31,724 bases of DNA from Thermomicrobiales bacterium. GTDB taxonomy: Bacteria; Chloroflexota; Chloroflexia; Thermomicrobiales; JALYUS01. Made by a program: the position numbers and the translations under genes. Shown here piece after piece: positions 27,175 to 30,992 of the stretch. Position 1 is the stretch's first letter. The number at the start of each line of letters is the position of its first letter. The stretch covers positions 1 to 31,724 of the forward strand of contig JBBSFO010000001.1 of NCBI GenBank assembly GCA_038238655.1, written 5' to 3'. The notes beneath the pieces are model-generated. The model did no database searches, had not been told where the DNA came from, and was given only the letters and a program-made list of their open reading frames with translations.

Positions 27175-28083
27175 GTGACCGTCAGTTTCGGACATATCAA
27201 TGTGCAACTCGGCAAAGAATTGCTCCAGGTCGTGCCGCTGAACACGCCGGTGATCACGATCGGTCGCGGGCCGGATAACAGCCTCACGCTCGCCCACCAA
27301 CTCGTCTCGCGTCACCACGCGGAAATTCGCCTCGATGGCGCGCAACCGACCCTGATTGATCTCGGCAGTTCGAACGGTACCTTGTTGAAGGGCGTGCGAC
27401 TGCTGCCGAATCAGCCGATGTTGCTCGCAATCGGCGATGCCTTTCAAATTGGCCCATTCTCGATGATTTACCAGGTTCCGGACCAGCGCTTCGACACCGA
27501 ACACGCCTTGTTCGTCGAGTTGGACCAACCGGCGTATATGCTCGACGCCTCAGTCACCTCCCCTACACCGATCATGCCCCGTGCAAGTTATCGGCCAGTG
27601 TTCACGCGCGATCGTCCGAGTACATTCCTCCCTAATCTACCGATCATCTTCCAGGAGAACTCGTTCTTCGAGCGGTTCCTGATGATTTTCGAATCTATCT
27701 GGGAGCCATTGGAGCAGCGGCAGGACCACATCCACATGTATTTCGACCCGCGCACCTGCCCCCCGGAAATCCTCTCCTGGCTGGCGTCGTGGCTTGACTT
27801 GTCCGAAACGCAGCACTGGCCGGAAGGCCGGAAGCGGCGGTTTTTCGCCGAGGTCATTGACCTGTATCGTTGGCGGGGCACACGGTACGGCCTCGAACGG
27901 ATCATCGAAGTGTGTACAGGATATGTTCCACGGATCACTGAATTGCCGAATACGCCGTTTGTGATTGATGTTTCCGTGACACTGCCGCCCGACCATGGCG
28001 CAGACCGGGCGCTGATCGAGCAACTGATTCTGACGCACAAGCCCGCGCACATCGGCTTTCACCTCACGGAGCGGACGTCATGA
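27175..28083 (+). CDS. FHA domain fused to P2 gpI-like baseplate (phage tail protein I) domain, 302 aa
   Basis: N-terminal FHA with intact TIGR, VSRHH and DLGSSNGT motifs (about 27220-27470). C-terminal FLPNLPIIFQ..FFERFLMIFESI...YFDPRTCP...LSWLASWL...WPEGRKR...LYRWRGTRYGL...LILTHKPAH (gpI-like). Confidence 0.92.
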   Translation: MTVSFGHINVQLGKELLQVVPLNTPVITIGRGPDNSLTLAHQLVSRHHAEIRLDGAQPTLIDLGSSNGTLLKGVRLLPNQPMLLAIGDAFQIGPFSMIYQVPDQRFDTEHALFVELDQPAYMLDASVTSPTPIMPRASYRPVFTRDRPSTFLPNLPIIFQENSFFERFLMIFESIWEPLEQRQDHIHMYFDPRTCPPEILSWLASWLDLSETQHWPEGRKRRFFAEVIDLYRWRGTRYGLERIIEVCTGYVPRITELPNTPFVIDVSVTLPPDHGADRALIEQLILTHKPAHIGFHLTERTS

Positions 28084-30992
28084 CGGAACTGATCGGCGAA
28101 GTTATCGGCAGTTATCGGATCGAGGCCCTGCTTGGCACAGGTGGCATGGCAACCGTCTACCGTGGCACGCATGTCCTGCTCGGCAGGCCGGTCGCGATCA
28201 AGGTGCCGCACCCGCAGTACAGCGCCGCGCCGACATTCAATGACCGTTTCGCGCAGGAGGCGAAAGCGGTTGCCGGCCTTAGCCACCCCAACATCGTCAG
28301 CATCTTCGATTTCGGCAAGCGCGACGATGGCCTGCTCTATCTCGTGATGGAACTCATCACGTCCGGCTCGATTCGTCGGCTGCTCCAACTATGGGGCAGC
28401 AACCCGGACCAGCGCTCGCTCGACGTTGGCGTTGACTTGATGTGCCAAGCGGCCAGCGCACTCAGTTACGCGCATCAACATCGCATCGTTCACCGCGACA
28501 TCAAGCCGGATAATATGCTGCTTCGCGCGCAGGAACCTGGCGGCTCGACTGAGCGCGGAGAGATGCTCAAGCTAACAGATTTCGGCCTCGCGCGTTTGGC
28601 GCAGGACGCATTTACGACGGCGAGCGGCCAGTTGCTCGGCACACCGACCTACATGTCACCCGAGCAATTCCAAGGGGCGGACCCCGATGAGCGGAGTGAC
28701 ATCTATTCTCTCGGTGTCGTGCTGTATGAAGTAGCCACAGGCTATCTACCGTTCGAAATCAAGACGCTCAGCGACGCTGCCTACAAACACACATCGGTCG
28801 AACCGCCGCTCCCTCTGATGGTCCGACCAGATTTGCCACCGCAGCTCGGTAACATCATTTTGCGCTGCCTCGACAAGCGCCCGCAAAATCGCTATGCCAC
28901 TGCGGGTGAACTCCTCTCGGCGCTACAAACGGTGCTGCTCAATCTCCGTCCACTCAATGGTATGGCGTCCGGCACCTACGCCGCACCATATGTGGACGAT
29001 CGCCGCGCCGCGTACGCTCAACCGGTCTATTCCGCACCGCCCGCACCGAGCGCGCCGACCGGTTGGATTGTGCCGCCCCAGCCGAGCAATCCTCCGGGCT
29101 GGAATGTCGCGCCACCCCAGCCGGGTGGCCCATCTGATTGGTATCCACCGCAACAACCGGGCATGTCGTCGTCGCAGCCAATCAGCATGGGGGCATCGCG
29201 GGCGCCGCGCTTGTCGGTACTCGATCGTACGGGTCAGGTCTACCAGGCAATTGATGTGACCGGGCGGGGACTAACAATCGGGAGCGGAAACGACAACGAC
29301 GTCGTCCTGAACGGGGTCGAGATTTCGCCCCACCATATGCGGATGGATTGGGACGGGCAGCGCGTCACCGTCACCGATCTGGGATCCACCTATGGCACTG
29401 CATACCGCGATGTCCCGCTCGCCCCATTCGCGCCGCAGGTGTGGCAGATGGGTGACGCGATCAAGATCAGCGGATACTGGCTCCGCCTCGATCCGCCCGT
29501 ACTCGAGACGATGGCCTTGCCAATGAATGGCGCCTCGAACGGCTTTGCGCCGACGGAAACGGAGTACTACGCGGAACCGACGCCGACGCCCGGTCGGATC
29601 CGTGTGGTGTTGACGGAAGGAAGTCAACTCTCGATCGTTCCGGGCCAGCGCGGAACGGTGAAAGGGACGATTGCCAATCTCGGCACGACCGTTGACCATT
29701 TCCGTCTGAGCATCGAAGGGATGCCGAAGGGGTGGCTCAGCGGCGCGGATCAGGAGTTGCAGCTCAACCCCGGGATGTCCGCCCCGATTGAACTGACCGT
29801 CCACACCGAGCACAGCCCTTCCTGGTTCGCGGGCGAGTATCCGGTGACAGTCCTCGCTCGGTCGCGCGAGCGCCCGCAAGAGACGGGAAGCGCGGACGCG
29901 CTGTTCACGATTCTCCCTTTCTCGGAGAGCGCCCTCAGCCTCGAACCGAGCCGGGTACGCAGCCGGTTCAACGCGTCATACAACCTGACGCTGCGAAACG
30001 ACGGCAACATTGCCGGCCGCTACTCGCTCGTCGGGGAAGATGAAGAAAAGCAACTGAAATACCAGTTCATCCCCCAATCGGTTGATCTCGATCCTGGCAC
30101 CTACACCTCGATTCGTCTCTCCGTCCGGGGGGCGCGCAACATCTTCGGGCGGCCAATCGCCCGCAATTTCACCGTCGGCGCGAGTTCATCCTCGGCGAAT
30201 GCGACCTTGCCCGCGCGCGGCGAATGGTCGCAGCCCGCGATTTTGCCGCCGTGGACGCTCCTGCTCCCCGTCTTTCTGGTCGTCGGCCTGCTCCTGCTCT
30301 GGCAACTAAAGGCACCGGTGATTGATTCCGTCACCATCCAGCCCCAGCAGCCGATCGCGGGCCAGCCGGTGATCCTCACCTGGCACGTCAAGAATACGAG
30401 CCGCGTGGACATCCAGCCGCTCTTGAAGGGGCTCGACCCGAAGACTGGCAATCACGTCTTCCCGAAGGGCTTGCCGAACAACGCAGCGCTGACGCTCGTC
30501 GCGCATGGCACGTTTTTCAAGACAACCGAGAAGCAGATCGCGGTCAGCGTCACGGCGGCGACGCCCGTCCCGACCGTCGAACCCGTCGCGCCTGAGGTTT
30601 CGATCTGGGAAGTAACGCCACAGACGGTCAAACCGGGTGACTCCGTGACGATTAAATGGAAGACGACGAACGCGGAAAGCGTCGAACTGGCGTCGTCTAC
30701 CGGCATGTCTGACACCGTCGAGGCCGAGGGGCAGCGGACGATCAAAGTGACTGAAGCGACGACCTTCAACTTGTCCGCGACCAATCACGGTAAAGTGACG
30801 AAACGCTCGCAGGCCGTAGCCCTCCAGGCGACGACACCTTCGGTCGGTGCGCCCGCCGGCTCGCGTGCCCCCGGTATTCCAATCCTCATCGCAACGCCCG
30901 CCGCTGCGCCGTCAGGGGCTGCGGGCTCACCGCGTCCCGCCGTCATCTCGACGCCGCCGGATCGAGTGGGAACCTTACCGCCGCATGGATAA
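28080..30992 (+). CDS. Transmembrane Hanks-type Ser/Thr kinase: kinase, Pro-rich linker, degenerate FHA, two Ig-like domains, TM, two extracellular Ig-like domains; 970 aa
   Basis: LGTGGMATVY, VAIK, HPNIV, HRDIKPDN (28491), DFG, GTPTYMSPEQ and SDIYSLG all intact. FHA-like LTIGSGND...ISPHH...DLGSTYGT. TM WTLLLPVFLVVGLLLLW (about 30252-30302). ATGA overlap with the FHA-gpI stop. Confidence 0.93.
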   Translation: MTELIGEVIGSYRIEALLGTGGMATVYRGTHVLLGRPVAIKVPHPQYSAAPTFNDRFAQEAKAVAGLSHPNIVSIFDFGKRDDGLLYLVMELITSGSIRRLLQLWGSNPDQRSLDVGVDLMCQAASALSYAHQHRIVHRDIKPDNMLLRAQEPGGSTERGEMLKLTDFGLARLAQDAFTTASGQLLGTPTYMSPEQFQGADPDERSDIYSLGVVLYEVATGYLPFEIKTLSDAAYKHTSVEPPLPLMVRPDLPPQLGNIILRCLDKRPQNRYATAGELLSALQTVLLNLRPLNGMASGTYAAPYVDDRRAAYAQPVYSAPPAPSAPTGWIVPPQPSNPPGWNVAPPQPGGPSDWYPPQQPGMSSSQPISMGASRAPRLSVLDRTGQVYQAIDVTGRGLTIGSGNDNDVVLNGVEISPHHMRMDWDGQRVTVTDLGSTYGTAYRDVPLAPFAPQVWQMGDAIKISGYWLRLDPPVLETMALPMNGASNGFAPTETEYYAEPTPTPGRIRVVLTEGSQLSIVPGQRGTVKGTIANLGTTVDHFRLSIEGMPKGWLSGADQELQLNPGMSAPIELTVHTEHSPSWFAGEYPVTVLARSRERPQETGSADALFTILPFSESALSLEPSRVRSRFNASYNLTLRNDGNIAGRYSLVGEDEEKQLKYQFIPQSVDLDPGTYTSIRLSVRGARNIFGRPIARNFTVGASSSSANATLPARGEWSQPAILPPWTLLLPVFLVVGLLLLWQLKAPVIDSVTIQPQQPIAGQPVILTWHVKNTSRVDIQPLLKGLDPKTGNHVFPKGLPNNAALTLVAHGTFFKTTEKQIAVSVTAATPVPTVEPVAPEVSIWEVTPQTVKPGDSVTIKWKTTNAESVELASSTGMSDTVEAEGQRTIKVTEATTFNLSATNHGKVTKRSQAVALQATTPSVGAPAGSRAPGIPILIATPAAAPSGAAGSPRPAVISTPPDRVGTLPPHG

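What the first reader, a model, noticed from the sequence alone, without database searches (positions are those of the whole stretch)
28080..30992. Receptor-like kinase with a pseudo-FHA and CIS-type Ig modules; no phosphatase in view
Seen: intact catalytic motifs; a Pro/Trp-rich linker (PTGWIVPPQPSNPPGWNVAPPQPGGPSDWYPPQQP); an FHA fold whose pThr-binding residues are altered (GS for GR, YG for NG); two Ig-like domains before the TM and two after; a Pro/Ala tail. No PP2C/PppA-type phosphatase gene is in the window. Inference: the extracellular Ig domains sense a cue, the kinase writes pThr, the baseplate FHA reads it, and the degenerate FHA acts as a phospho-independent scaffold. Without a local eraser the switch could be one-way, which suits single-shot firing.
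Basis: partly seen in the sequence, partly recalled or inferred. Interest (0 to 1): 0.78.

Follow-up and report, generated by a model that had tools for sequence, protein, structure and literature searches.

The report
Membrane kinase wired to injection-machine baseplate
A membrane-spanning Ser/Thr kinase sits where tail fibres (or the Streptomyces trigger protein CisA) are normally encoded in a phage-tail-like injection machine whose baseplate protein carries a phosphothreonine-reading domain. This suggests an undescribed phosphorylation switch that docks or fires this kind of machine at the cell membrane.

Summary
ORF 28080-30992 encodes a 970-aa PknB-type kinase with all catalytic residues. 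It continues with a Pro/Trp linker, an FHA fold with Arg402->Ser and Asn438->Tyr, two cytoplasmic Ig-like domains, one TM helix, two outer Ig-like domains and a Pro/Ala tail.

No PP2C is on this contig, but the window is the whole contig.

The gene overlaps by ATGA the stop of an FHA-fused Cis12 wedge gene. The cluster is a Streptomyces-type (IId) contractile injection system. The same pairing recurs in about 24 Chloroflexota loci, down to roughly 30-40% identity.

The conserved core is Ig1-Ig2-TM. Where Cis12 lacks FHA, the next gene is an Ig-Ig-TM protein with neither FHA nor kinase.

The degenerate FHA is a fixed trait of the window's close clade only. The wider family is mostly canonical, and over a third of its kinase domains lack a catalytic residue.

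Best reading: a CisA-slot membrane adaptor with a T6SS-like phosphothreonine gate. The "one-way switch" idea is not supported. No relative examined has a local phosphatase, yet every genome, this one included, encodes PP2C elsewhere.

Earlier notes of this scan reached the same general reading in at least 7 other genomes. I found no published description.

The parts
27175..28083 (+). Cis12 (gpI/Tail_P2_I-like baseplate wedge) with an N-terminal canonical FHA domain (aa ~20-100: G30-R31, S45-R-H-H48, S65-S-N67-G-T)
   Evidence: Pfam FHA 4.7e-19 and Tail_P2_I 8.9e-14. The C-terminal half matches S. coelicolor Cis12, PDB 9gtp_E. The motifs are conserved in 22 loci.
28080..28083 (+). ATGA overlap: kinase start codon within the Cis12 stop (translational coupling)
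   Evidence: Sequence read. The same 4-nt overlap occurs in L002, L003 and L093.
28080..30992 (+). Whole gene: kinase-FHA-Ig-Ig-TM-Ig-Ig membrane protein (P0001, 970 aa)
28113..28934 (+). Hanks-type Ser/Thr kinase domain, aa 12-285, an RD kinase with activation-loop T179/T180
   Evidence: Pfam 1.1e-44. PknA/PknB E 1e-49. The K41/E60/R139/D140/N145/D167 pattern KERDND is intact.
28935..29207 (+). Pro/Trp-rich linker, aa 286-376, with three P-x-(G/D)-W...PPQP-like repeats. Poorly conserved and specific to the close clade.
   Evidence: Identity is 49% within the close clade and 13% beyond it.
29208..29501 (+). Internal FHA fold, aa 377-474, with S402 (for Arg) and Y438 (for Asn); S416 and H419 are kept
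   Evidence: Pfam 2.8e-11. Column counts. pLDDT about 96.
29598..29912 (+). Cytoplasmic Ig-like domain 1 (FixG_C/NEW3-like), aa 507-611. It is the best conserved non-kinase part of the family.
   Evidence: Invariant block N533...E597. 47% identity to the most distant group. Model.
29928..30233 (+). Cytoplasmic Ig-like domain 2 (HYDIN/VesB-like), aa 617-718
   Evidence: Pfam PF22544 1.2e-5. Model.
30249..30308 (+). Single transmembrane helix, aa 724-743
   Evidence: Only hydrophobic segment. Helix 350-369 of the model.
30318..30824 (+). Two extracytoplasmic Ig-like domains (aa 747-820 and 839-915)
   Evidence: Model. The ECTO profile also hits repeats in the kinase-less relatives.
30825..30992 (+). 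Disordered Pro/Ala-rich tail (aa 916-970) and stop codon

Best explanation
P0001 is the dedicated membrane partner of a Streptomyces-type (subtype IId, probably cytoplasmic) contractile injection system. It is encoded in the slot that holds tail fibres in extracellular CIS and the firing factor CisA in Streptomyces.

Shown:
- It is a bitopic protein. The kinase, FHA and two Ig-like domains lie before the only TM helix and two Ig-like domains lie after it.
- It is translationally coupled to an FHA-fused Cis12 wedge gene.
- The pairing is conserved over deep divergence.

Inferred:
- The conserved cytoplasmic Ig1-Ig2 pair and the TM helix tether or present the protein to the baseplate at the membrane.
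- On an envelope or extracellular cue, the kinase autophosphorylates, or phosphorylates a CIS protein, on Thr.
- The canonical FHA on Cis12 binds that pThr. This docks the baseplate at the membrane and licenses assembly or firing, much as PpkA-Fha does for the T6SS.
- The internal FHA of this clade has lost its phosphate-binding Arg and its Asn. It most likely serves as a phospho-independent scaffold or spacer, leaving Cis12 as the only competent reader in the locus.
- Dephosphorylation, if needed, would come from the genome's unlinked PP2C.
For: The locus is a complete CIS: sheath, three tube paralogues, VgrG, PAAR, gp25, baseplate J, Cis12, Pvc16, AAA ATPase and DUF4157 proteins.

The sheath matches S. 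coelicolor CIS 8bky/9gtp over its full length at E 3e-174.

CisA is described as a bitopic N-in protein encoded just after the baseplate genes and needed for firing (PMC12237407). Chloroflexota CIS are reported as IId, intracellular and without a cisA homologue (PMC12998442).

Synteny of FHA-Cis12 followed by a kinase-FHA-Ig-Ig-TM protein:
- L002 (70% identity) and L003-5 (43%).
- 22 loci in 21 genomes or assemblies from 9 GTDB families.
- Two more loci with pseudokinases.

Fourteen loci whose Cis12 lacks FHA carry Ig1-Ig2-TM proteins with neither FHA nor kinase.

The Cis12 FHA motifs are conserved. The kinase motifs are intact. Ig1 is the most conserved block. The AF2 model is confident.
Against: There is no biochemical or expression evidence.

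The FHA/kinase co-occurrence is phylogenetically structured and may trace to one or a few events (tree), so it is not a statistical test.

Family members also occur outside CIS loci, and in genomes without any detectable sheath gene (G247, G367, G399, G362).

About 48 of 128 kinase-bearing relatives lack a catalytic residue. Catalysis is therefore often dispensable, or is supplied by another kinase.

One FHA-Cis12 locus (G339, L059) has no detectable partner within 13 kb.

The phospho-acceptor site is unknown. No conserved Thr motif stood out in the linker.
Confidence: 0.6

Rival explanations
1. Mainly a structural anchor. The Ig1-Ig2-TM-ectodomain core is the functional unit, a CisA-like or tail-fibre-like membrane tether for the baseplate. 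The kinase and FHA domains are modulatory add-ons whose chemistry is not needed for the basic function.
For: Kinase-less, FHA-less Ig-Ig-TM proteins follow Cis12 in 14 loci. Ig1 is the best conserved domain. Over a third of relatives are predicted pseudokinases and many have degenerate FHA pockets, with no reciprocity between the two. Pseudokinase members keep their place behind FHA-Cis12.
Against: In this window every catalytic residue is intact and the kinase domain is 85% conserved within the clade. The FHA on Cis12 has been kept canonical over deep divergence, which is hard to explain without a pThr ligand.
Confidence: 0.25
2. One reading: a one-way phospho-switch. With no phosphatase in the locus, the pThr mark is never erased, which suits single-shot firing.
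For: No PP2C on the contig. None within 170 kb or on the same contig in 9 relatives. None within about 10 kb in 47 loci by phmmer.
Against: Every genome examined has 1-10 PP2C_2 matches elsewhere. This genome has a soluble PP2C and two SpoIIE-type phosphatases. From established knowledge, bacterial STPKs are commonly served by unlinked phosphatases (M. tuberculosis PstP). Earlier scan notes report PP2C inside related loci; I did not check these. Sheath contraction is irreversible in any case, so one-wayness cannot be inferred from gene content.
Confidence: 0.07
3. A general envelope-sensing receptor kinase of Chloroflexota that merely lies next to the CIS cluster, with substrates unrelated to the machine.
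For: Orphan copies exist in non-CIS contexts and in genomes with no sheath gene. The kinase domain is generic PknB-like, below every NCBIfam equivalog cut-off.
Against: The start and stop overlap by 4 nt, and gene order is conserved in about 24 loci down to roughly 30-40% identity. FHA on Cis12 appears only where the neighbour has FHA and a kinase on or next to it.
Confidence: 0.08

Closest known systems
T6SS threonine phosphorylation pathway (P. aeruginosa PpkA-Fha1-PppA; A. tumefaciens PpkA-TssL-Fha)
   Same: A membrane Hanks-type kinase with an extracytoplasmic domain is encoded within a contractile-machine cluster. An FHA reader is tied to the machine. The logic is post-translational licensing of assembly or firing.
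   Different: This is not a T6SS: no TssJLM-type membrane complex was seen among the window's ORFs. The FHA is fused directly to the wedge protein Cis12 rather than being a separate Fha1/TagH. A second, degenerate FHA and two cytoplasmic Ig-like domains sit in the kinase protein itself. There is no PppA-type phosphatase in the locus. The host is a Chloroflexota bacterium.
CisA (SCO4242), membrane firing factor of the S. coelicolor cytoplasmic CIS (PMC12237407)
   Same: The same CIS lineage (sheath E 3e-174 to 8bky/9gtp). The same gene slot, directly after the baseplate genes. The same bitopic topology, N-in and C-out.
   Different: CisA is described as having an unstructured N-terminus and a substrate-binding-like C-terminal domain, with no kinase, FHA or Ig domains. 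Streptomyces Cis12 (190 aa) has no FHA. Homology to CisA could not be tested because no CisA sequence was at hand.
Mycobacterial PknB/PknA with FHA partners (GarA, FhaA, Rv1747)
   Same: The closest solved kinase domains (E 1e-49). The Cis12 FHA is closest to GarA-type FHA domains. The writer-reader logic is the same.
   Different: There is no PASTA ectodomain. The kinase carries its own FHA and Ig-like domains.
FHA-like cytoplasmic domains of secretion-system membrane scaffolds (T3SS YscD/PrgH, T7SS EssC)
   Same: An FHA fold placed before a TM segment in a secretion or injection machine. In YscD/PrgH the phosphate-binding residues are missing and the domain acts without phosphate (established knowledge). 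Pfam Yop-YscD_cpl also hits here.
   Different: Those proteins have no kinase domain and build rings. Here the degenerate state is recent and clade-specific, and the wider family is canonical.

Membership tests
Hanks-type (PknB-like) Ser/Thr protein kinase | Gly-rich loop, VAIK Lys, alpha-C Glu, HRD Asp, Asn, DFG Asp and (A/S)PE all present | tested here: met
   GTGGMATVY, K41, E60, H138-R-D140, N145, D167-FG and S193-PE are present. Pfam 153 bits against a cut-off of 31.7.
Hanks-type (PknB-like) Ser/Thr protein kinase | Phosphotransfer activity | not testable with these tools
   Needs an in vitro assay.
FHA domain (phosphothreonine reader) | FHA beta-sandwich fold | tested here: met
   Pfam 44.1 bits against a cut-off of 20.7. 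The AF2 model has pLDDT about 96 over aa 375-474.
FHA domain (phosphothreonine reader) | Canonical pThr pocket: Arg of GR, Ser and His of SxxH, Asn of NG | tested here: not met
   S402 replaces Arg and Y438 replaces Asn; S416 and H419 are kept. The family has R in 64 of 74 and N in 55 of 74. The neighbouring Cis12 FHA meets all four.
T6SS threonine phosphorylation pathway (PpkA/Fha/PppA) | Membrane STPK plus an FHA protein encoded within the machine's cluster | tested here: met
T6SS threonine phosphorylation pathway (PpkA/Fha/PppA) | Cognate PP2C phosphatase (PppA) in the cluster | tested here: not met
   No PP2C, PP2C_2 or SpoIIE match on contig C1. None near the locus in 9 relatives.
T6SS threonine phosphorylation pathway (PpkA/Fha/PppA) | The machine is a T6SS with a TssJLM membrane complex | tested here: not met
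   Pfam scans of the window's large ORFs give eCIS/phage-tail families only. The sheath is of the Streptomyces CIS type.
CisA-type membrane adaptor of subtype IId CIS | Encoded directly after the baseplate genes of a IId CIS, in the tail-fibre slot | tested here: met
   Gene order baseplate J, Cis12, kinase. Sheath lineage. Slot as described in PMC12237407.
CisA-type membrane adaptor of subtype IId CIS | Bitopic, N-terminus in the cytoplasm | tested here: inconclusive
   There is a single TM. N-in is inferred because the kinase and FHA precede it and there is no signal peptide. No reporter data.
CisA-type membrane adaptor of subtype IId CIS | Sequence or fold homology to CisA | not tested
   No CisA sequence was available. 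The published domain description differs.
eCIS tail fibre (Afp13/Pvc13) | Secreted fibre protein without a TM segment that binds target cells | tested here: not met
   The protein has a TM helix and N-terminal cytoplasmic enzyme domains.

The most novel reading that the evidence does not exclude
Ig1-Ig2-TM-ectodomain proteins would be the general membrane docking and trigger receptors of Chloroflexota IId contractile injection systems, functional counterparts of CisA. In one large branch they would have acquired a kinase-FHA module together with an FHA on Cis12. This would create, independently of the T6SS, a phosphothreonine-gated docking of a phage-tail baseplate to the cell membrane. Tandem arrays with different ectodomains (six paralogues in G295) would act like alternative 'inverted tail fibres' that let different external cues fire the same machine.
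Probability: 0.35. Interest if true: 0.82.

Novelty: new variant of a known kind. Interest (0 to 1): 0.68.

Why it matters
How cytoplasmic (Streptomyces-type) contractile injection systems find the membrane and decide to fire is an open question. CisA is the only known factor, and Chloroflexota are reported to lack it.

This locus offers a concrete, testable candidate: a membrane kinase in the CisA slot and a pThr reader built into the baseplate wedge. If confirmed, phosphorylation control of contractile machines would not be a T6SS peculiarity. It would be a solution reached independently in monoderm-type lineages.

The family is large: 276 clusters at 50% identity with E <= 1e-30. It contains natural experiments that could separate scaffold roles from signalling roles:
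- pseudokinases;
- degenerate FHA domains;
- kinase-less paralogues;
- tandem arrays.

Tried and rejected
- Complex prediction of Cis12 with P0001 aa 375-719 returned no answer (score 0.00, controls not run). This is neither for nor against binding.
- Reciprocity idea (an intact kinase goes with a degenerate FHA, and the reverse): rejected. The cross-table over 123 relatives reads 55/20/26/22.
My IG1, IG2 and ECTO profiles did not hit that ORF.
- PDB sequence search with aa 470-970: no hit.
- Foldseek gave only generic Ig/ASH/Fn3 strings.
- NCBIfam: the kinase is below every equivalog cut-off.
- Literature searches for eCIS or contractile injection with FHA, forkhead-associated or kinase found only T6SS papers.
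- Promoter and terminator scan of 30700-31400: nothing found.
- No RNA holder listed for the stretch. The only near-complete holder is a soil metagenome that may be the source of this DNA.
- phmmer with this genome's own PP2C and SpoIIE against 47 loci gave one weak hit about 35 kb upstream in G295 (E 4e-4), judged unrelated.
- No conserved pT-x-x-(I/L/V) motif was found in the kinase-FHA linker. T299 and T327 are not conserved.
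Full report
WHAT IS IN THE WINDOW

The window is the whole of contig C1 of a 969-contig assembly (91% complete). Close homologues of the kinase are named Thermomicrobiales/Chloroflexota by their sources.

It encodes a contractile injection system (CIS). In order, the genes are:
- a BTAD regulator;
- Pvc16_N;
- an AAA ATPase;
- a methyltransferase with TPR repeats;
- a DUF4157 (eCIS_core) protein;
- a second Pvc16_N protein;
- the sheath;
- three gp19-type tube proteins;
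- a 2061-aa eCIS_core protein;
- CIS_tube-LysM;
- a VgrG-like spike;
- PAAR;
- gp25;
- baseplate J;
- FHA-Tail_P2_I (Cis12);
- the kinase;
- a further eCIS_core gene cut by the contig end.

The sheath matches the Streptomyces coelicolor CIS sheath (PDB 8bky/9gtp) over its full length at E 3e-174. The C-terminal half of Cis12 matches 9gtp chain E. The machine therefore belongs with the Streptomyces-type, subtype IId lineage. That lineage is reported to act from the cytoplasm (PMC12237407) and has been seen as free intracellular particles in Chloroflexota (PMC12998442).

CHECK OF THE OBSERVATION

The ORF 28080-30992 is open. The kinase domain (aa 12-285) scores 153 bits in Pfam. It keeps K41, E60, HRD140, N145, DFG167 and SPE, and its nearest solved relatives are PknA and PknB. 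The quoted Pro/Trp linker is at aa 326-360.

The FHA match covers aa 399-463 (E 2.8e-11). Against an alignment of 74 family members, the protein compares as follows:
- Ser402, where 64 of 74 have Arg;
- Tyr438, where 55 of 74 have Asn;
- Ser416 and His419 kept.

An AlphaFold2 model of aa 375-945, built on that alignment, is confident (mean pLDDT 89). It shows:
- the FHA sandwich;
- a disordered stretch (aa 477-504);
- two beta-sandwich domains (aa 507-611 and 617-718);
- one helix (aa 724-743);
- two more beta-sandwich domains (aa 747-820 and 839-915);
- a disordered Pro/Ala tail.

The helix is the only strongly hydrophobic segment of the protein. The kinase and FHA precede it and there is no signal peptide. 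The first two Ig-like domains must therefore be cytoplasmic and the last two outside; this is an inference.

Foldseek finds only generic strings of Ig/ASH/Fn3 domains. No phosphatase of the PP2C or SpoIIE kind lies on the contig. The flanks cannot be inspected because the contig ends there.

LINK TO THE MACHINE

The kinase start codon lies inside the Cis12 stop codon (ATGA at 28080-28083).

The same arrangement recurs widely. It is seen with a 70%-identical homologue (L002) and a 43%-identical one (L003-L005), each inside a CIS cluster and with the same 4-nt overlap.

I sampled 400 genomes of the phylum and fetched the DNA around 47 Cis12 genes. I scanned the ORFs with profiles built from this family. 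Two classes emerged.

- Class A. In 22 loci, from 21 genomes or assemblies in 9 GTDB families, Cis12 carries an N-terminal FHA. The next membrane protein always carries an FHA, nearly always with Ig1-Ig2-TM. A kinase domain is fused to it or encoded beside it. One class A locus (G339, L059) has no detectable partner, and one ends at a contig edge.
- Class B. In 14 loci from 8 other families, Cis12 has no FHA, which Pfam confirmed on eight of them. It is followed by one to four Ig1-Ig2-TM-ectodomain proteins with neither FHA nor kinase.

Ig1 is the most conserved non-kinase block. It holds the invariant residues N533 to E597, and it keeps 47% identity to the most distant group, where the kinase domain has dropped to 39%.

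A tree of the Ig1-Ig2 region puts all FHA- or kinase-bearing members on one side of a branch (SH-aLRT 91), with class B on the other side. The root is unknown. The FHA/kinase co-occurrence may therefore reflect one or a few events. What it shows is long co-retention, not repeated independent gain.

WHAT THE WIDER FAMILY SAYS

The FHA-Ig-Ig-TM region finds 276 clusters (50% identity) at E <= 1e-30. Among 165 members examined:
- 128 have a kinase domain;
- about 75 of those keep K/D/N/D;
- about 48 lack at least one catalytic residue, mostly the HRD Asp.

Pseudokinase members P0020 and P0017 still sit directly behind FHA-Cis12 in CIS loci, and P0018 sits next to CIS_tube and VgrG.

The internal FHA is canonical in most members. 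The Ser/Tyr form is fixed in the window's close clade of seven sequences (at least 59% identity over the region searched). Within that clade the domain is still 78% conserved. It is therefore retained rather than decaying.

Kinase integrity and FHA integrity are not reciprocal (55/20/26/22).

One closed genome (G295) has six tandem paralogues after Cis12. Four carry a kinase domain (one of them a weak match) and two lack it. The two kinase-less paralogues have different ectodomains, Calx-beta and Big_13.

Copies also exist in non-CIS contexts, and in four genomes with no detectable sheath gene. The family is therefore not strictly tied to CIS.

THE PHOSPHATASE QUESTION

In nine relatives with the FHA-Cis12 plus kinase pair, three of them closed or nearly closed, any PP2C_2 match on the same contig lies 177-537 kb from the locus. 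In the others the matches are on different contigs. Each of these genomes has 1-10 such matches. A phmmer scan of all fetched loci found none nearby.

This genome has one soluble PP2C on contig C2, between MoaE/ThiS and dCTP deaminase/RuvA genes. It also has two SpoIIE-type phosphatases.

The lack of a local phosphatase is therefore the rule in my sample, but an eraser is available in trans. This is usual for bacterial Ser/Thr kinases (established knowledge: M. tuberculosis PstP serves eleven kinases). Two earlier notes of this scan report PP2C genes inside related loci; I did not check them. The one-way inference does not follow from gene content.

MECHANISM

Most likely (confidence about 0.6): the protein is the membrane partner of the baseplate, in the CisA or tail-fibre slot.
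- Its Ig1-Ig2-TM core provides the tether.
- Its kinase writes pThr on itself or on a CIS protein in response to an envelope cue.
- The canonical FHA on Cis12 reads that mark. This docks the baseplate or licenses firing, as PpkA-Fha does for T6SS.
- The degenerate internal FHA acts without phosphate.

Shown: the architecture, the intact motifs, the synteny, the co-retention and the CIS lineage.

Inferred: the topology, the writer-reader pairing, the docking and the cue.

The main rival (about 0.25) is that the scaffold is what matters and the phospho-chemistry is dispensable.

NOVELTY

Full-text searches found FHA or kinase control only for T6SS. The CisA paper and the Chloroflexota CIS paper mention neither kinase nor FHA.

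Earlier notes of this scan describe the same pairing in at least 7 other genomes and reach the same CisA-slot and T6SS-like reading. I had reached that reading independently before consulting them.

Noticed in passing
L050:1953-15911 and L051:1938-9791 (G295, closed genome); the same layout in L062 (G207): After FHA-Cis12 comes a PKMT-like lysine methyltransferase, then six tandem paralogues of the membrane protein. Three are kinase-FHA-Ig. Two are FHA-Ig without a kinase and have Calx-beta or Big_13 ectodomains. One has a weak kinase. It looks like a cassette of alternative sensors.
   Followed up: partly
window 5978-7609: A Methyltransf_28 (MidA/NDUFAF7-like) protein with TPR repeats lies inside the CIS cluster. 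G295 has a different protein methyltransferase (PKMT-like) between Cis12 and the kinases. Protein methylation may be a second modification linked to these machines.
   Followed up: no
L080:5696-6631 (G219) and L076:13769-14692 (G227): In some FHA-less loci the N-terminus of Cis12 weakly resembles an Ig-like NEW3 domain (Pfam E 0.003) or my Ig1 profile (E 9e-4). This could hint at an Ig-Ig contact between Cis12 and the membrane protein. The evidence is weak.
   Followed up: no
L046:9485-12607 (G247) and L047; also G367, G399, G362: Full-length kinase-(FHA)-Ig-Ig-TM proteins occur in genomes with no detectable sheath or Tail_P2_I gene. In G247 the gene lies between a LUD-domain gene (with a PAS/STAS gene before it) and an LrgB gene. 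In genus g6 the FHA is missing (kinase-Ig-Ig-TM).
   Followed up: partly
window 3-1448 (minus strand) and L003:21076-23426: A membrane protein with PD40 repeats and a C39-like peptidase domain lies at the left edge of the window. A C39_2/SLT/HYR protein lies near the related locus L003. A cell-wall or peptidase partner may be a recurring neighbour of these CIS clusters.
   Followed up: no
window 15735-21920: A 2061-aa protein carries an eCIS_core (DUF4157) domain near its C-terminus (aa 1804-1880). Relatives have 619-880-aa versions in the same place and a 1721-aa one after the kinase (L002, L003).
   Followed up: no
L059 (G339:C165): An FHA-Cis12 gene has no detectable kinase, FHA or Ig-Ig-TM partner in the 13 kb downstream. 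It is the one exception to the pairing, and the assembly is 93% complete and fragmented.
   Followed up: partly
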